Source: an uncultured virus (IMG/VR IMGVR_UViG_3300025626_000022)
Taxonomy: Duplodnaviria; Heunggongvirae; Uroviricota; Caudoviricetes; Crassvirales
IMG/VR virus record: IMGVR_UViG_3300025626_000022
DNA length: 20,000 nt
Strand: one strand, 5' to 3'
Positions 9,653-15,737 of this stretch are shown in pieces (position 1 is the stretch's first letter; every line of letters starts with the position of its first letter). Position numbers and translations under genes: made by a program. The notes under the pieces were generated by a model. That model did not search any database. It was not told the origin of the DNA and was given only the letters and a program-made list of their open reading frames with translations.

Positions 9653-9685
9653 TTACAATGTAGATACGATTGTATATAGATAATA
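9653..9685 (+). promoter_or_regulatory. 33-bp repeated motif copy 1 (putative phage promoter)
   Basis: TTACAATGTAGATACGATTGTATATAGATAATA. Confidence 0.7.
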
Positions 9686-9714
9686 ATATCAACTAACAAA
9701 TAAATAAAAACAAT

Positions 9715-9798
9715 ATGAAAAAATTAAATAATATAAATATAATAATGCCAGTGATAATGATAACTTATGAATTAATATTCTTAATAAATATAGTGTAG
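9715..9798 (+). CDS. Putative 27-aa hydrophobic peptide
   Basis: MKKLNNINIIMPVIMITYELIFLINIV*; A-rich leader directly after motif copy 1. Confidence 0.4.
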   Translation: MKKLNNINIIMPVIMITYELIFLINIV

Positions 9799-9913
9799 AC
9801 TAATTAATAATATATCACTCACTATAATAAACATCTGATATTCAGGGTAAATTATAGAGAAGTCGCGCGATACACCTAAGAACTAAAACTAACATACAAA
9901 CAAAGTTACACTC

Positions 9914-9946
9914 TTACAAACTAAATACGACAACAACAAGATAATA
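9914..9946 (+). promoter_or_regulatory. 33-bp repeated motif copy 2
   Basis: TTACAAACTAAATACGACAACAACAAGATAATA. Confidence 0.8.
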
Positions 9947-9988
9947 ATAATAACTAAACTAAATATAAATAAATAAAATAAAATAAAT

Positions 9989-10225
9989 ATGAAAACTAAT
10001 AAACTAACAACAAAAAGATTTGTAATCAGAAAGTCTTTACTCGGTACAAATACTGTAATCACTTTCACTAACAAAAAAGATATAACTTTCACTTATGATC
10101 ATGACGAGATTTACTCAACATTTCAAGAAAAGTTTGAATCAATGAGTTGCTTTCAAAACTACAAAAGTTATACTAATTCAAATACAGTTCCAAAATTCTG
10201 TAGAGAATTAAGTGAAATATCTTAA
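9989..10225 (+). CDS. Hypothetical early protein
   Basis: 78 aa ORF with A-rich leader downstream of motif copy 2. Confidence 0.8.
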   Translation: MKTNKLTTKRFVIRKSLLGTNTVITFTNKKDITFTYDHDEIYSTFQEKFESMSCFQNYKSYTNSNTVPKFCRELSEIS

Positions 10226-10235
10226 AACTAAAAGT

Positions 10236-10389
10236 CCAGTTAGTTACTTGTTTACTGGTAAATCAAATATGAATAAGTAAAAGTCGATGTTGATAGTAAT
10301 ACTTTAACGACTATAAATAACACGAACATATTACTCAGCACATAACTGAAATGGTTGGAAGTGAGATTCGATTTCTCACTCAGTTACAA
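10236..10389 (+). ncRNA. Putative structured RNA with tRNA-like (T-arm) 3' part
   Basis: Intergenic. Stems CCAGT/ACTGG, TTACTTGTTT/GAATAAGTAA, AGTCG/CGACT, TAACTGA/TCAGTTA and GTGAGA-TTCGATT-TCTCAC (T-loop-like). Confidence 0.45.
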
Positions 10390-10416
10390 ACTAAAAACGA
10401 CAAAGTGTCGATAATA
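10384..10416 (+). promoter_or_regulatory. 33-bp repeated motif copy 3
   Basis: TTACAAACTAAAAACGACAAAGTGTCGATAATA. Confidence 0.8.
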
Positions 10417-10442
10417 TAATAAACTAATTAAAATAAATAACT

Positions 10443-10643
10443 ATGTATAATCCAAATAATCCTTCAAACTGGTCTTGGTCAAAAGCTTTTGACGAAATGA
10501 ACCAAACAGTAAATCAAGCTGAACTTACTCAACAATGTATAAACCATGTTCTAAATTATCCTGGTGAAGCTAACGGTGTTTTCATGACACTAAACAAAAC
10601 TCAACAAGATGATGTTTATGAACTACTAAATCAAATATTATGA
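10443..10643 (+). CDS. Hypothetical early protein
   Basis: 66 aa ORF after motif copy 3; ATGA-coupled to next ORF. Confidence 0.75.
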   Translation: MYNPNNPSNWSWSKAFDEMNQTVNQAELTQQCINHVLNYPGEANGVFMTLNKTQQDDVYELLNQIL

Positions 10644-10852
10644 GTACTAAAGTAATAAAAGGTAGTTATAATTTAAATACTACAATAGATAAAATAGCAA
10701 TGTCAGAATTTAAAATGCACTATTATCAACTTGGTGACAATGAAAAACAATGGTGTAATGATGAAATGATAAATAATCCTAAGTGGTTAGCTCCTTTTTG
10801 GAAACAAGAAGGTTATGTACCTGAAAGCTCAACTTGGCTAAATAATAACTAA
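10640..10852 (+). CDS. Hypothetical early protein
   Basis: 70 aa ORF, ATGA overlap. Confidence 0.7.
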   Translation: MSTKVIKGSYNLNTTIDKIAMSEFKMHYYQLGDNEKQWCNDEMINNPKWLAPFWKQEGYVPESSTWLNNN

Positions 10853-10866
10853 TAAATAAAATAAAT

Positions 10867-11025
10867 ATGATAGATAACTATGAATTTGAAATATACTATG
10901 GTGAGATAGAAGAACCACTATATTTAACTAACGATAAAAACTATATTTGTGACGACATGAGAGATTTCATGGAAGAACTAGGAATAGTAATGGAAGAAGT
11001 AATATATAAAGTACAAGTAATATAA
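10867..11025 (+). CDS. Small acidic hypothetical protein (52 aa)
   Basis: Manual translation MIDNYEFEIYYGEIEEPLYLTNDKNYICDDMRDFMEELGIVMEEVIYKVQVI*; A-rich leader; fills the gap before motif copy 4. Confidence 0.7.
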   Translation: MIDNYEFEIYYGEIEEPLYLTNDKNYICDDMRDFMEELGIVMEEVIYKVQVI

Positions 11026-11057
11026 TACAAACTGAATACGATAACTAATAGATAATA
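11025..11057 (+). promoter_or_regulatory. 33-bp repeated motif copy 4
   Basis: ATACAAACTGAATACGATAACTAATAGATAATA, ATG 5 nt later (11063). Confidence 0.8.
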
Positions 11058-11062
11058 ACAAT

Positions 11063-11311
11063 ATGAAATATACAAACACAGACAACTTAACAGCAATCAA
11101 TTATGGTGACGGTGAAATCAAACTCATGATCTTCAACAAACATAAATCTCCTTATGGTTATTCACCTCGCGACTTAGTTGTCTCACTGTTCAGTGTTTCA
11201 ACAAAAGAATTTACGTACAATTATGTACAACAAGAAGTAGACAAAGTGTATTCTACTTTTAACTACGACGAAATACACGAATTACTAACTAAACTAAAAA
11301 ACAATATATGA
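11063..11311 (+). CDS. Hypothetical early protein
   Basis: 82 aa ORF; ATGA-coupled to next ORF. Confidence 0.75.
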   Translation: MKYTNTDNLTAINYGDGEIKLMIFNKHKSPYGYSPRDLVVSLFSVSTKEFTYNYVQQEVDKVYSTFNYDEIHELLTKLKNNI

Positions 11312-11568
11312 AAAAACTATTAATATCTGTAGGTGCATTTATACTAATGTCATCAACAGTAAACAAAACAAAATATCCTTCTGATCAACTATGTTTCGCT
11401 ATGTTAAACGTAAGTGAACTAAAAGATTGGGTGTGGAATGACTTACAAAATGGTAAAATATCACAACAACAAGCAGAAAATTATAATGAATTACTTGAAG
11501 AAACTTATATTTTTATAGCTGATTATTACAAACATTTACCTGATGGAACTTTAGTAGATAACTTTTAA
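11308..11568 (+). CDS. Hypothetical exported protein (signal-peptide-like N-terminus); paralogue of 17884..18189
   Basis: MKKLLISVGAFILMSS; core NVSELKDWVWNDLQNGKIS. Confidence 0.7.
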   Translation: MKKLLISVGAFILMSSTVNKTKYPSDQLCFAMLNVSELKDWVWNDLQNGKISQQQAENYNELLEETYIFIADYYKHLPDGTLVDNF

Positions 11569-11579
11569 AAATAACTAAT

Positions 11580-11804
11580 ATGATACTAACTAATAAAGAA
11601 AAAGACGAAATTACTTGGAGAGTAGTTGACTCACTATACGAAAAACTAGCTAATGAGCTAGAATATGAACTTGAAGATCACAATGACTTCATAGAAACTA
11701 ACGATGAATTTATGGATTTATTCAATGAAATGACTATAAAAATAGTAAAGTATATGAGAAGTGAATTATTTCAACCAATGACTAACGAAGATTTAAAACA
11801 ATAA
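11580..11804 (+). CDS. Small acidic hypothetical protein
   Basis: 74 aa, D/E-rich helical. Confidence 0.75.
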   Translation: MILTNKEKDEITWRVVDSLYEKLANELEYELEDHNDFIETNDEFMDLFNEMTIKIVKYMRSELFQPMTNEDLKQ

Positions 11805-11805
11805 T

Positions 11806-11976
11806 ATGACAGAACAACAAAAAATAGAAGCAATCGCTAATGATATACAGAATGGTGTCTACGGTTGGACACAGAAATGTGGAACAGAGTGGCAGAAGTG
11901 GACATACTCACTAATGCAAGCAAGAAAAATATATGACGGTGAATTAATAATAGATTTAAGTATAGAAAATGAATAG
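11806..11976 (+). CDS. Hypothetical protein (56 aa)
   Basis: Manual translation MTEQQKIEAIANDIQNGVYGWTQKCGTEWQKWTYSLMQARKIYDGELIIDLSIENE*; tiles the gap between flanking ORFs. Confidence 0.7.
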   Translation: MTEQQKIEAIANDIQNGVYGWTQKCGTEWQKWTYSLMQARKIYDGELIIDLSIENE

Positions 11977-12160
11977 AGATAGAGAATGGGATTTTATAGA
12001 TGATGAACTACAACAAATAGAAGATAATAGATCTTTACTAGCAACTTTTGCACTAGTAGTTAAAGAACTAGCTATAAAACACCCTAATAACCAAGAACTA
12101 GGTGCAGAAGTAAGACAATTAATACAAGATTACAAACTAAATACGAACACTAATAGATAA
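11969..12160 (+). CDS. Hypothetical protein
   Basis: 63 aa with a K.HPNNQELGAEVR motif; 3' end runs through motif copy 5. Confidence 0.7.
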   Translation: MNRDREWDFIDDELQQIEDNRSLLATFALVVKELAIKHPNNQELGAEVRQLIQDYKLNTNTNR

Positions 12161-12162
12161 TA
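12130..12162 (+). promoter_or_regulatory. 33-bp repeated motif copy 5
   Basis: TTACAAACTAAATACGAACACTAATAGATAATA, ATG 5 nt later (12168). Confidence 0.85.
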
Positions 12163-12167
12163 ATAAC

Positions 12168-12311
12168 ATGAAAACAATTAAATTTTACCCAAGCGACAGA
12201 TCACTAATAAGATTAGACGGTCAAATGCTAAAAGGCTATACTATTAATAATATACCAGACGACTACACAAGCTGGTTTAACTATAAAGGCTTAACTTACA
12301 TAACAAGTTGA
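12168..12311 (+). CDS. Hypothetical protein (47 aa)
   Basis: Manual translation MKTIKFYPSDRSLIRLDGQMLKGYTINNIPDDYTSWFNYKGLTYITS*. Confidence 0.7.
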   Translation: MKTIKFYPSDRSLIRLDGQMLKGYTINNIPDDYTSWFNYKGLTYITS

Positions 12312-12321
12312 CAAACAACTG

Positions 12322-12367
12322 ACGAAATGTAGCTCATACTTAACCGGTATGGGCTTTTCGTGGTATG
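12322..12367 (+). promoter_or_regulatory. Conserved RNA hairpin leader element copy A (terminator/attenuator-like)
   Basis: ACGAAA...AGCTCATAC-TTAACCG-GTATGGGCT-TTTCGTGGT-ATG. Confidence 0.7.
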
Positions 12368-12808
12368 AAATGTAACCACAATATTCCACAAGCAAGATTA
12401 GATTTAGGATATACTGTCTGTGTCGAGTGTTCAACTGAAGAAAAACTCGGTTGTATTGACACTATCAACCATAAAACTGGCAATACTGTTCAAGTAATGT
12501 CACGTGAAGATGCAGACAAAGCTAGTAAGCTTACAAAACGAGCAGGTTTTGGTATACTAAGATCTATGGCAGGTGGTTCAAGTCAACGTAAAGCTAAGTA
12601 TAAATACGATGGATGCTCAACTACTTATGTAGGTAACGACGTAATGTTCGAGCAAATAGGTAAAACTTACATCGATTTCTTAGATGTTGACAAAGAAATT
12701 GCAGAGCGCTATCTCGATCGAGCGCTAAACAACTTAGAAATATCTCAATTACAATATAATAAGATAAAGCTAGTTTGTTACAATCTAAATACGATCACTA
12801 TTGGATAA
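12365..12808 (+). CDS. Hypothetical protein with N-terminal DksA/TraR-like zinc-finger motif
   Basis: MKCNHNIPQARLDLGYTVCVECS resembles the IP.ARL....C..C of C4-type DksA/TraR fingers; 147 aa. Confidence 0.6.
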   Translation: MKCNHNIPQARLDLGYTVCVECSTEEKLGCIDTINHKTGNTVQVMSREDADKASKLTKRAGFGILRSMAGGSSQRKAKYKYDGCSTTYVGNDVMFEQIGKTYIDFLDVDKEIAERYLDRALNNLEISQLQYNKIKLVCYNLNTITIG

Positions 12809-12810
12809 TA
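12778..12810 (+). promoter_or_regulatory. 33-bp repeated motif copy 6
   Basis: TTACAATCTAAATACGATCACTATTGGATAATA. Confidence 0.8.
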
Positions 12811-12824
12811 TATATAAATAATAT

Positions 12825-12971
12825 ATGAATAAAATAACAAAACAACTCGAAAACTTGTATTCTTGGACAAAATTCTATCAAGATCGAGGTAATAAAGAAG
12901 CAATTAGAAAATGTCAAACTGAAATCGCACAGTTGAAACAAGCGTTTAACAAATTAAAAACTAAAAAATGA
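12825..12971 (+). CDS. Hypothetical protein (48 aa)
   Basis: Manual translation MNKITKQLENLYSWTKFYQDRGNKEAIRKCQTEIAQLKQAFNKLKTKK*; ATGA-coupled to 12968. Confidence 0.7.
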   Translation: MNKITKQLENLYSWTKFYQDRGNKEAIRKCQTEIAQLKQAFNKLKTKK

Positions 12972-13258
12972 AAGATACTAACGCTATCGAACAAGCATTG
13001 AAAGATAAATGCAAAAAAGAAATAAGCAAAGTAGTTAATGTATTTATGAATGAACTTGAAACAAAAATTAGAGGTGAATATAATTCAGCTAGTTACTATG
13101 ACTTTACGCCTCCTAATAATGAAAATAAAGCTAAATTCCACGTAATGGGTACTTCACAACTAGAAAATGTGCTATTTAGAATGATCTCAAATGCTCATCT
13201 TGAATCTATGGTTGCTTTAAAATCAAAAGAATTAATTAAAAAACTTGAATTAGTATGA
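12968..13258 (+). CDS. Hypothetical protein
   Basis: 96 aa ORF, ATGA overlaps at both ends. Confidence 0.75.
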   Translation: MKDTNAIEQALKDKCKKEISKVVNVFMNELETKIRGEYNSASYYDFTPPNNENKAKFHVMGTSQLENVLFRMISNAHLESMVALKSKELIKKLELV

Positions 13259-13596
13259 AAAATAGAACACTAAATGAAATTAGACAATCAAAAGAGTTTC
13301 AAATTGCTAAAGCTAATGCAGATCTACAAGCGGAAGTAGCTAAAAACACTAATAAAAACCCTTTTGAACACGAAGAAGTAGATAAAACTATTGATCAAAT
13401 TGTAGAAGACTTACAACCTGTAATATATGATACTATATTTGAACTAATTTGTAATGAAATGGGTACAAAATATGTATTTGACTCATCAGAATACTTAACT
13501 GAATCAGGTTTAGAACTATTTGAAGACGAATGGTTCGAGTTTTATCATGAAAATCATGGTAAAATAATGCATAAACTACTACAAAACTTAAAATAA
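13255..13596 (+). CDS. Acidic hypothetical protein
   Basis: 113 aa; acidic C-terminal half weakly similar to 11580..11804. Confidence 0.75.
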   Translation: MKNRTLNEIRQSKEFQIAKANADLQAEVAKNTNKNPFEHEEVDKTIDQIVEDLQPVIYDTIFELICNEMGTKYVFDSSEYLTESGLELFEDEWFEFYHENHGKIMHKLLQNLK

Positions 13597-13748
13597 TGAA
13601 CTACTCATTAAACTTTTTAAAACAAACGGCAAGTGATTACGATATACCTTTAAACGAGGTAAAACGTATTAGAGAAAACAATAATAGATTAGATTTCTAC
13701 AACGCACTTGAACAATATTTAATAAATAAACGAAAAAACTTAAAATAA
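13596..13748 (+). CDS. Hypothetical protein (50 aa)
   Basis: Manual translation MNYSLNFLKQTASDYDIPLNEVKRIRENNNRLDFYNALEQYLINKRKNLK*; TAATG overlaps at both ends. Confidence 0.7.
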   Translation: MNYSLNFLKQTASDYDIPLNEVKRIRENNNRLDFYNALEQYLINKRKNLK

Positions 13749-13945
13749 TGAAGAAATTTAACGGAATGGAGTCACATCTTATAATAGATGCACTTACTTT
13801 TTATGTAGCTCAAGTTGAAAGCGATATATTACAGATGGAAAAAGAAGGTAAAAGATCTATATTTGCACCAGGTTTTTATACTAATATATCAAAAGAGTTA
13901 AAAGATAAAGTAAAATCTATGACTAAAAAACAAATTACAAACTAA
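13748..13945 (+). CDS. Hypothetical protein
   Basis: 65 aa; stop codon lies inside motif copy 7. Confidence 0.75.
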   Translation: MKKFNGMESHLIIDALTFYVAQVESDILQMEKEGKRSIFAPGFYTNISKELKDKVKSMTKKQITN

Positions 13946-13967
13946 ATACGAACACTATAAGATAATA
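13935..13967 (+). promoter_or_regulatory. 33-bp repeated motif copy 7
   Basis: TTACAAACTAAATACGAACACTATAAGATAATA, ATG 5 nt later (13973). Confidence 0.85.
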
Positions 13968-13972
13968 TAAAT

Positions 13973-14194
13973 ATGTTATACGATAAATTAAAACCACATA
14001 TCAAAGCCAAATTGAAAGAAAACGCTAAAGAGTATGAATCTGTAAACTGGCTATTTGATAAACTAAAACAAAAAGACAATTACTCTGACTTAACTATTGA
14101 CGAGCTAAGATCTGTTTGTACATTTGGCGATGTATGGTATCATGATCTTACTCAGTCACAGCTTATATGGGGTGAATGGCTAATAAATAAATAA
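13973..14194 (+). CDS. Hypothetical protein
   Basis: 73 aa ORF immediately after motif copy 7. Confidence 0.75.
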   Translation: MLYDKLKPHIKAKLKENAKEYESVNWLFDKLKQKDNYSDLTIDELRSVCTFGDVWYHDLTQSQLIWGEWLINK

Positions 14195-14196
14195 AT

Positions 14197-14547
14197 ATGA
14201 ACGAAGAAAAACTAGCTTTAGAAACATTAAAAGCACTAGGTGCTAAAGATACATCAAGTCCATCTCAAATAAAAAGAGGTACAACTTGCTTTACATTACC
14301 AACAGGTGACTGTATATCTGAACACAAAACAGGTTACATTAGAAAAAATCTACTACATAAAACTGGTGGAATATATACTTGTTATCAACTAAATCCACAA
14401 TATAAGACAATTGAAAAGTCTATAAACTGGAATGGTAAAGAAGTTGAATTTGAAAGAAACAACAGAATGTTGATATGGAACAGAGCTGAAAGACTAAAAA
14501 GACTTGTATTATATACAATAAAACAAATAAACAAGTCAAATGGATAA
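14197..14547 (+). CDS. Hypothetical protein
   Basis: 116 aa ORF, tightly packed, co-oriented. Confidence 0.75.
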   Translation: MNEEKLALETLKALGAKDTSSPSQIKRGTTCFTLPTGDCISEHKTGYIRKNLLHKTGGIYTCYQLNPQYKTIEKSINWNGKEVEFERNNRMLIWNRAERLKRLVLYTIKQINKSNG

Positions 14548-14632
14548 AGATAAAAGAGATTTAGCGCTAATAATGGCAGTTTTAGCGCTACTACTCTATA
14601 CAATTTTACTAACTGTCTCAATACTAAATTAA
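14540..14632 (+). CDS. Putative 30-aa single-pass membrane peptide
   Basis: MDKDKRDLALIMAVLALLLYTILLTVSILN*; fills the gap between ORFs. Confidence 0.55.
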   Translation: MDKDKRDLALIMAVLALLLYTILLTVSILN

Positions 14633-14642
14633 ATTAACTAAC

Positions 14643-15092
14643 ATGGAACCAAAAGAACCAACACAAGAAAAAATTATAGAAGCTGTAAAAAAGTATTATG
14701 GCTTAACAATAGATGAAAACGCTTATCAAAGCGCTGATGTATATGCTTACGAAGAAACAACTGCAGATGGTTATTCTGTGTATGTTGTAACTAATGACAT
14801 GAATAGAGTATGTATATCTGAAGATGTATATTACTATGAATCTGATATACCTGAAGCTATCATGGAACAAATAAATTATTCTAATGGCGACTGCACACTA
14901 TATGCAGATCAATACTTCCTAGATGATATATACTTTGATGATGTACTACTAGAAGCATTTCAAGATATAGCTGAAAGTATATATGACGAAATTATGAATG
15001 AAGACAGTGATTACAACTTTGACATGGCAGAACTGCAATGGCTAAAGGAAGAATTTACTGAATCAGAAGAGATTAATCAGACTGTTAGTTAG
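14643..15092 (+). CDS. Highly acidic protein (DNA-mimic candidate)
   Basis: 149 aa; hand count about 38 D/E versus about 6 K/R; Tyr-rich. Confidence 0.75.
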   Translation: MEPKEPTQEKIIEAVKKYYGLTIDENAYQSADVYAYEETTADGYSVYVVTNDMNRVCISEDVYYYESDIPEAIMEQINYSNGDCTLYADQYFLDDIYFDDVLLEAFQDIAESIYDEIMNEDSDYNFDMAELQWLKEEFTESEEINQTVS

Positions 15093-15110
15093 TTAATAGT
15101 AGTTTAGTTT

Positions 15111-15180
15111 CCACGAATAGCAAAGGCATAGCGCCTCGGCGTAAGCTCGTACTCAAAAGGTACGGGCTTTTCGTGGTATG
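15111..15180 (+). promoter_or_regulatory. Conserved RNA hairpin leader element copy B (terminator/attenuator-like)
   Basis: CCACGAA...AGCTCGTAC-TCAAAAG-GTACGGGCT-TTTCGTGGT-ATG. Confidence 0.7.
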
Positions 15181-15393
15181 AATAATATAAATATGATGAA
15201 AGCATTTATGTTACTAGGTGATCTAGATGCTACAAGCACAGAAAAGTTAAGCGACGCAAGAGTTGCTTACAAAGAAAGAATAGCTTTTGCTACAATGAGA
15301 GCTAGTATACCTGATTGGCAACCACCAAGTGATTGGGATAGTTTAACTAACGGACAAAAACTAGACAGACTTGATAAGTTACAATCAGTATAA
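15178..15393 (+). CDS. Hypothetical protein
   Basis: 71 aa; P.DWD.L....K..RLD motif; stop abuts motif copy 8. Confidence 0.75.
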   Translation: MNNINMMKAFMLLGDLDATSTEKLSDARVAYKERIAFATMRASIPDWQPPSDWDSLTNGQKLDRLDKLQSV

Positions 15394-15426
15394 TTACAAA
15401 CTAAATACGAACACTAACAGATAATA
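15394..15426 (+). promoter_or_regulatory. 33-bp repeated motif copy 8
   Basis: TTACAAACTAAATACGAACACTAACAGATAATA, ATG 5 nt later (15432). Confidence 0.85.
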
Positions 15427-15431
15427 TTAAT

Positions 15432-15737
15432 ATGAAAGACGACGCAATTGAAAAACTAGCACAACTATTATTTGATAAAATAATGGAAAAGCAAGAACAA
15501 GCTGATATGGAGTATGCAGATCAAATACAAAGCTTAATGAATAATGGCTATGTTGTTAATGATATAACCGACAAACTAGGTATTAACGAAGAAGAAAAAC
15601 TAGTTGGTGAGTTAGCTAAAATGCAAACTATAATGATGATTCTTGAAGACAAAGAAGAATACGAAAAAGCAGCTATAATACTAAAGAAAATAAATACAAT
15701 AAATAGAAAATTAAATAATGGATCAGGAAAATATTAA
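15432..15737 (+). CDS. Hypothetical protein with C-terminal UVR (UvrB/UvrC)-like motif
   Basis: 101 aa; EDKEEYEKAAIILKKI matches the EdYEkAa.lrd.i UVR pattern. Confidence 0.6.
   Translation: MKDDAIEKLAQLLFDKIMEKQEQADMEYADQIQSLMNNGYVVNDITDKLGINEEEKLVGELAKMQTIMMILEDKEEYEKAAIILKKINTINRKLNNGSGKY

What the first reader, a model, noticed from the sequence alone, without database searches (positions are those of the whole stretch)
12322..15180. Twice-repeated structured RNA leader with compensatory covariation fused to the start codon
Seen: 12331-12367 AGCTCATAC-TTAACCG-GTATGGGCT-TTTCGTGGT-ATG and 15144-15180 AGCTCGTAC-TCAAAAG-GTACGGGCT-TTTCGTGGT-ATG. The geometry is identical. The stem differs only by an A-T to G-C compensatory pair, keeps a T-G wobble (favouring plus-strand RNA), and the loop varies. 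Both copies have an upstream segment complementary to the 3' tail (ACGAAA 12322-12327 with TTTCGT; CCACGAATAGC 15111-15121 with GCTTTTCGTGG) that can extend into the hairpin base. The two downstream genes are unrelated and, unlike most neighbours, lack an A-rich leader. Inference: an undescribed cis-regulatory RNA (attenuator/antiterminator switch, processing site or translational control element).
Basis: partly seen in the sequence, partly recalled or inferred. Interest (0 to 1): 0.78.

Follow-up and report, generated by a model that had tools for sequence, protein, structure and literature searches.

The report
Phage RNA rack with swappable modules
Two short folded RNA elements between the early genes of an uncultured ocean phage are the fixed frame of a cassette into which related phages plug about fifty different small folded RNAs; the frame probably marks where the transcript is cut, and what the plugged-in RNAs do is unknown.

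Summary
Observation confirmed at exact coordinates, but the hairpin is only the frame. In 167 distinct units from related marine phage contigs two helices (P1, P3) are constant and covary as plus-strand RNA, while two slots hold nothing or one of about 50 structured inserts, nested in each other, in arrays of 2-3 units. Inserts covary on their own and also ride on tRNA- or tmRNA-like frames in relatives, so they are independent of the frame. The ATG follows directly in 86 of 120 unbiased units; downstream genes vary. No Rfam family matches. P3 resembles T7 early-region RNase III hairpins (suggestive only). Best reading (0.55): a host-RNase-III-type processing frame that displays and releases interchangeable small RNAs and frees the buried start codon; cleavage is not shown. 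Not a riboswitch. This scan noted the same family before on other DNA (e1-5947416) and similar racks in other phages.

The parts
12318..12327 (+). Unit 1, 5' strand of helix P1 (pairs with the tail after P3)
   Evidence: fold; same place in relatives
12328..12330 (+). Unit 1, slot A, empty here; 30-75 nt inserts at this place in relatives (L001, L002, L009)
12331..12355 (+). Unit 1, helix P3 (arms 12331-12339 and 12347-12355) with slot B = 7-nt loop 12340-12346
12356..12364 (+). Unit 1, tail = 3' strand of P1; inferred cut after 12359; ATG at 12365
   Evidence: pairing; cut position inferred from T7 R1.3
12365..12808 (+). 147-aa ORF with Cys pairs, no PHROG or Pfam match; starts at the same Met in relatives that lack the unit
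15111..15117 (+). Unit 2, 5' strand of P1
15118..15143 (+). Unit 2, slot A, loaded with 26-nt module M4 (internal loop formed by 15120-15126 and 15134-15140); absent or replaced in contigs of two RNA libraries; same internal loop occurs circularly permuted on other frames
15144..15168 (+). Unit 2, helix P3 (arms 15144-15152 and 15160-15168) with slot B = 7-nt loop 15153-15159
15169..15177 (+). Unit 2, tail = 3' strand of P1; inferred cut after 15172; ATG at 15178
15178..15393 (+). 71-aa ORF, no PHROG or Pfam match; one of at least four unrelated genes seen after site 2
10343..10386 (+). Second kind of frame: armless tRNA/tmRNA-like element (7-bp acceptor stem, 11-nt linker, T-arm), empty here; relatives carry cargo in the linker
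   Evidence: (z -1.9)
10236..10335 (+). Two pseudoknot-like RNAs ahead of the tRNA-like element; the first is optional among relatives; stems change in step by eye, not counted
   Evidence: plain folding gives no signal (z +0.6)
12130..12165 (+). One of 8 copies of a promoter-like repeat of the early region (others near 9653, 9914, 10384, 11025, 12778, 13935, 15394); separate from the units
   Evidence: promoter role is inference

Best explanation
The P1/P3 element is a constant RNA frame in the phage's early transcripts. Its 3' strand forms one continuous helix (P3 then P1) while the 5' strand is interrupted by slot A and the tip is slot B. The host's RNase III (inferred) recognises P3 and nicks the U-rich tail about 4 nt below it, as at T7 early sites. 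That (a) leaves the upstream RNA ending in a protected helix that holds the cargo modules folded and displayed, or frees them when units stand in arrays, and (b) releases a downstream message whose AUG was buried at the foot of P1, with a 5-nt leader. The conserved boxes also serve as crossover points, so that modules and the following gene are reshuffled between phages. The modules are selected RNAs in their own right, most likely ligands for host or phage proteins during take-over. Shown: the frame, its strand, the slots, nesting, covariation of one module, exchange of frames. Inferred: cleavage, the enzyme, the cut site, the translation effect, recombination at the boxes, the modules' targets.
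For: Frame: in 167 distinct units pair 6 is G-C in 103, A-U in 62; other changes are mostly G.U on the + strand or full swaps; a third site type changes P1 on both sides in 4 of 4 resolved units; P1 tail paired upstream at p>=0.5 in 141 of 148; stem-to-ATG distance is 9 nt in both site types (115 + 6 units). Cargo: slot B holds >=20 nt in 37 of 167, up to 81; slot A >=20 nt in 92 of 125 resolved; module M1 is 100% paired over 234 cells with 4 of 13 pairs changed on both sides and invariant loops; M1 also sits in a tmRNA tRNA-like domain without mRNA part (Rfam E 6e-14, 2.5e-11); M4 keeps its internal loop in circular permutation on other frames; a G-rich loop is kept while its closing stem is exchanged; at site 1, 3 of 48 relatives carry a tRNA-like cassette instead. 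RNase III: the window's stems share 4.8 and 4.2 of 9 pair types with five T7 early hairpins against 2.43 +/- 0.97 for 63 control hairpins (2 of 63 reach 4.8); in that register the proximal-box rule of PMC1540722 (GC, AU/UA, AU, AU/UA) is met; RNase III is absent from 4 of 4 near-complete relatives and present in a Flavobacteriaceae genome; 3 of 5 16S leader-trailer helices of such genomes show the same foot and an interrupted 5' strand (by eye).
Against: No cut, end or strand was observed: only contigs were served. The T7 likeness was found post hoc, is modest, and T7 sites resemble each other more (4.25-6.5); the records do not annotate these hairpins as RNase III sites, that naming is recalled. 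The E. coli distal-box pairs (UA, UG) are not met (AU, UA here), and E. coli RNase III needs an 11-bp helix, which empty units reach only by stacking on P1. A 130-nt insert in the 5' strand is far larger than the internal loop of T7 sites. 22 of 125 resolved units carry no cargo and many relatives lack the unit at site 1 (19 of 48), so the frame is kept without cargo and is dispensable per site. The 3' box was fixed by my search patterns, so changes on that side are under-counted, and units are related, not independent events. No target of any module was found. The host is inferred.
Confidence: 0.55

Rival explanations
1. Leaky intrinsic terminator or attenuator: P3 plus the U-run ends most transcripts, the 3' tail folds back as P1 to seal the RNA, and the gene behind is made at a lower level; cargo rides at the 3' end of terminated RNAs without any nuclease.
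For: GC-rich hairpin followed by a U-run; a promoter box usually follows after one more gene and sometimes at once (2 of 120); similar stems with long U-tracts occur in unrelated phages; PeSL stem-loops are terminators (PMC2839356 abstract).
Against: Only 5 U in 8 nt (4 in 8 at the third site); neither copy is among the 8 sites listed by the terminator scan; loops up to 81 nt; arrays of three units; 91 of 120 units lead straight into a gene without its own promoter.
Confidence: 0.17
2. Uncut boundary or protein-binding frame: the element is never cleaved; it insulates or stabilises messages, or is bound by a phage or host protein, and dampens translation of the next gene; inserts are displayed inside the mRNA.
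For: Sequence, not only pairing, of P3 is nearly invariant; the AUG sits at the foot of a -18 to -31 kcal/mol fold with no A-rich leader; an earlier scan note read it this way (e1-5947416; a lead, not evidence).
Against: The alternative frames are tRNA-like, a shape that RNase P and 3'-end nucleases cut (established knowledge); no candidate binding protein travels with the unit.
Confidence: 0.17
3. DNA-level recombination site (attC- or REP-like) that exchanges genes and inserts; the RNA fold is incidental.
For: Genes and inserts change exactly at the conserved boxes; two paired boxes with variable spacers recall attC sites (recalled).
Against: No tyrosine recombinase and no Y1 transposase in 5 of 5 near-complete relatives; G.U-type changes on the transcribed strand in frame and modules; tRNA-like frames carry the same modules.
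Confidence: 0.06
4. Riboswitch-like switch in which the insert senses a ligand and controls the next gene.
For: Inserts look like aptamers (stems with conserved internal loops); P1 covers the start region.
Against: Insert and downstream gene vary independently; empty units persist; one dominant fold; same modules occur on frames not tied to a start codon.
Confidence: 0.05

Closest known systems
RNase III processing hairpins of phage T7 early RNA (R0.3-R1.3; R1.1 in PMC1540722, R1.3 in PMC8565310)
   Same: Intergenic hairpins in an early region, about 10-bp upper stem starting A-U, G-C with a U.G at pair 4, U-rich strand below, interrupted lower helix, just ahead of a gene.
   Different: T7 hairpins have short loops and a small internal loop, no exchangeable cargo, no arrays; distal-box pairs differ; cleavage here is untested.
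PeSL regulatory cassettes of T4-like phages (PMC2839356, abstract)
   Same: Repeated non-coding element in a hyperplastic early region at whose copies genes are shuffled.
   Different: PeSLs contain a promoter and a terminator; here promoters are a separate repeat, the U-tract is weak, and the element carries variable structured inserts.
Pseudo-ToxI repeats of phage PhiTE (PMC3475682, abstract)
   Same: Phage non-coding RNA units that expand and recombine; a model for what cargo could do.
   Different: One repeated mimic of a known host antitoxin; here about 50 unrelated modules on a common frame and no host counterpart found for the one module tested.
tmRNA tRNA-like domain (Rfam RF00023) and engineered tRNA scaffolds (the latter recalled)
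   Same: The alternative frames in relatives keep acceptor stem (often G3.U70), D-like loop and T-arm, with cargo where the anticodon arm or P2 would be.
   Different: No tag reading frame, below the family's gathering score; not called by ARAGORN; they are natural and exchange cargo with the P1/P3 frame.

Membership tests
T7-type RNase III site | Intergenic, on the coding strand of an early polycistronic region | tested here: met
   2-3 fixed sites, always on the coding strand
T7-type RNase III site | About 10-bp upper stem with an interrupted helix below | tested here: met
T7-type RNase III site | Proximal box GC, AU/UA, AU, AU/UA (E. coli rule) | tested here: inconclusive
   met in the register borrowed from T7; the register is my inference
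T7-type RNase III site | Distal box UA, UG (E. coli rule) | tested here: not met
   AU, UA in 162-165 of 167 units; host enzyme differs from E. coli's
T7-type RNase III site | Cleavage by RNase III | not testable with these tools
   only contigs served
Intrinsic terminator | U-tract of 7-8 nt after the stem | tested here: inconclusive
   5 of 8 U, 4 of 8 at site 3; not listed
Intrinsic terminator | Short loop | tested here: not met
   20-81 nt in 37 of 167 units
Riboswitch or attenuator | Fixed link between sensor and a class of downstream genes | tested here: not met
Riboswitch or attenuator | Two competing folds | tested here: not met
   P3 probability >=0.8 in 142 of 148 units; computed, not probed
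Any Rfam 15 family | Match to a covariance model | tested here: not met
   window and 60 unit-bearing or candidate loci: no match on a unit
Integron attC or REP element | Cognate tyrosine recombinase or Y1 transposase in the genome | tested here: not met
   0 of 5 relatives for each family; a host enzyme was not excluded
PeSL cassette | Promoter and terminator stem-loop in one repeat | tested here: not met
   promoter-like repeat and unit are separate
Pseudo-antitoxin RNA | Likeness to a host antitoxin RNA | tested here: inconclusive
   one module only: model R1 in 101 genomes, best hit inside an ORF
tmRNA (alternative frames only) | mRNA-like domain with tag frame | tested here: not met
   about 300 model positions skipped

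The most novel reading that the evidence does not exclude
These phages run a combinatorial library of naturally evolved RNA aptamers: dozens of small folded RNAs, mounted on interchangeable host-processed frames (RNase III-type helix, tRNA- or tmRNA-like domain), nested and reshuffled by recombination, each binding a host defence or house-keeping protein early in infection: an RNA counterpart of the variable early protein genes around them.
Probability: 0.35. Interest if true: 0.92.

Novelty: new variant of a known kind. Interest (0 to 1): 0.72.

Why it matters
Phage early regions are read as collections of small proteins. Here the gaps between those genes hold a second, equally variable inventory made of RNA, with conserved folds that move between carrier frames. 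If the modules are ligands for host proteins, this is a source of natural RNA inhibitors and a direct handle on the defences of uncultured marine bacteria; even if not, it is an uncatalogued RNA family, a natural version of the RNA scaffolds that engineers build, and a compact test of RNase III rules and of 5-nt-leader translation in Bacteroidota.

Tried and rejected
Rfam: nothing on the window or on units. Cultured phages: no meaningful match for unit 2, none for two neighbouring proteins. Host origin of the frame: 0 of 401 genomes of the family of G034 held the exact pattern, loops of 5-35 nt only. Host origin of module M1: 11 of 101 genomes gave weak hits; I looked at the best two, one lay inside an ORF and neither was convincing. 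Anticodon-loop decoys: 0 of 11 distinct 7-nt loops on stems of 4 bp or more fit the pattern. Malachite-green aptamer: one module shares 6 + 11 letters with it but the module's own paired changes (L029, L138, L297) give another fold; taken as chance. RNA libraries: contigs only, so no ends, strand or level. A broad stem pattern returned mostly unrelated terminator-like hairpins. Slot-A parsing: the first two automatic parses mis-assigned many P1 strands and were replaced, which left 41 of 166 units unresolved and has one cluster that is coding sequence. Dropped before counts: GC-rich loci (above 42%), L234, and 7 boxes without a 5' arm (5 at contig or locus ends, L053 and L165 apparently chance). 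No whole genome is held. Literature searches that found no description of this element; they cover open-licence papers only, and the supplements of PMC5737381 were not read.
Full report
Setting. The window is an AT-rich phage stretch with GroEL, ligase, sigma factor, Erf and exonuclease VIII genes. From about 9.6 kb on, the + strand carries many small ORFs without family matches and 8 copies of a promoter-like repeat. Relatives are 55-68 kb marine viral contigs. A Bacteroidota host is inferred: A-rich leaders without Shine-Dalgarno motif, best Erf matches in Riemerella phages at 40%, a GroEL relative in a contig of a Flavobacteriaceae assembly (possibly a binned phage).

Observation. Both copies are as described, fold far better than shuffles and better on the + strand, and have leaders without A, unlike 23 neighbours. 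Rfam gives nothing.

The frame. Each has a 5' P1 strand, slot A, the 5' arm of P3, slot B, the 3' arm and a tail that pairs with P1. The 5' arm was not part of the main patterns, yet pair 6 is G-C in 103 and A-U in 62 units, G.U in 1, and unpaired in 1 mis-parsed unit at a contig end. Other changes are G.U on the + strand (pairs 1, 7, 8, 9) or full swaps (pairs 4, 7, 9); pair 1 is open in 8 and pair 3 in 1. A third site type shortens the U-run and changes P1 on both sides yet keeps 9 nt between stem and ATG. Units are related, so these are counts of sequences, not events. They stand at two or three fixed intergenic sites, always on the coding strand. Directly after the 47-aa gene, 29 of 48 distinct relatives have the unit, 10 a promoter box, 4 the next ORF, 3 a tRNA-like cassette, 2 other. 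With a pattern that did not demand ATG, 86 of 120 units run into ATG, 5 into TAG-ATG, 5 into another module, 2 into a promoter box, 20 into other leaders, 2 are cut. The link to the start codon is common, not defining.

The cargo. Slot B holds 20-81 nt in 37 of 167 units; slot A holds 20-134 nt in 92 of 125 resolved units; 23 have both, 22 neither. The 116 distinct inserts fall into 51 clusters, one a parse error and several composites, 26 with two or more variants. Modules nest inside modules (L142, L075, L133, L348), move between slots (L052 against L007; L028 against L158) and sit between units in arrays of two or three (L054, L100, L103, L110, L149). In two RNA-library assemblies the window's own slot A is missing 26 letters or holds 82 others. 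Module M1, 18 variants, forms a three-way junction with every cell paired, 4 of 13 pairs changed on both sides, against 23-46% paired for slid controls (the structure was derived from these sequences). A scan for M1 found it in 4 further contigs without the P1/P3 frame, which are more distant relatives: in two it fills a tmRNA tRNA-like domain lacking the mRNA part. The window's module M4 keeps the same internal loop in circular permutation in L142, in a tRNA-like frame in L320 and twice in L373. A G-rich loop is kept on different closing stems, in and outside units. The window itself has an empty tRNA-like frame at 10343-10386. So modules are conserved apart from their carrier; this is the strongest result.

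Mechanism. Since the alternative frames are tRNA-like, a shape cut by RNase P and 3'-end nucleases (established knowledge), a processing role for the P1/P3 frame is the simplest common ground. I folded the leaders of T7 early genes from the record; naming them RNase III sites is recalled, since the records do not annotate them. The window's stems share 4.8 and 4.2 of 9 pair types with them, 63 control hairpins 2.43 +/- 0.97, 2 of 63 reaching 4.8: suggestive, post hoc. R1.3 cleavage gives a product starting with C (PMC8565310, passages), which places the cut 4 nt below the 9-bp stem; here that would leave a 5-nt leader. In this register the proximal-box rule is met and the distal-box pairs are not (PMC1540722, one of seven parts of the text and passages). 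Single-strand cuts and A-U preference near the cut are usual (PMC6212723, passages), and preferences are similar in B. subtilis (PMC11780869, passages). The phages lack RNase III (0 of 4); the Flavobacteriaceae genome has it. None of this shows cleavage; the RNA runs are contigs.

Rivals. A leaky terminator remains possible, above all for empty units; an uncut boundary or protein-binding element equally. A DNA site is unlikely without a recombinase, though exchange at the boxes by Erf probably does the shuffling (inference). A riboswitch is unlikely as insert and gene vary independently.

Comparison. It works most like T7 RNase III hairpins, shuffles genes like PeSLs (PMC2839356, abstract) and may act like pseudo-ToxI (PMC3475682, abstract), but meets the definition of none that I could test. 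Four searches (listings only) and passages of PMC5737381 showed no description; closed papers and supplements were not seen. Within this scan it is not new: e1-5947416 describes the same family in a related genome, including swappable inserts and tRNA-like replacements, and five notes report constant stems with variable cargo in other phages. These are unchecked leads; they suggest the strategy is widespread.

Verdict. A real, uncatalogued RNA frame with an exchangeable, independently conserved cargo; processing by RNase III is the best but unproven mechanism (0.55); the cargo's function is open. New variant of a known kind, with a 0.35 chance of being a new kind of system. Interest 0.72.

Noticed in passing
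window 9653-15445, + strand: Eight copies of a rigid promoter-like repeat ahead of early genes; earlier scan notes e1-5947414 and e1-6200192 treat it in related genomes.
   Followed up: partly
window 10236-10335: Two pseudoknot-like RNAs, the first optional, with stems that change in step among relatives; no Rfam match.
   Followed up: partly
L062 2052-2125, +: Hammerhead-ribozyme-like sequence with intact core motifs but below gathering score, about 550 nt after a unit in a distant relative.
   Followed up: no
L370 450-551 and L375 450-551, - strand; L327 10115-10199: Mini tmRNA-like domains (G3.U70, T-arm, no tag frame) carrying cargo; could bind SmpB or alanyl-tRNA synthetase (inference).
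   Followed up: partly
L013, L014, L140, L313, L319, L320: A third cassette type: two hairpins followed by a tRNA-like frame with 24-81 nt of variable cargo.
   Followed up: partly
L122, L136, L313, L320: G-rich loop on a swapped stem that could form a G-quadruplex aptamer.
   Followed up: no
L053 955-991, -: abiF RNA match above gathering score in an unrelated viral contig.
   Followed up: no
G001 ends: The contig carries two versions of the early region, one at each end, with different genes behind the units; many contigs break near the units.
   Followed up: no
L320 17488-17559, -: A standard tRNA-Glu gene in the early region of one relative.
   Followed up: no
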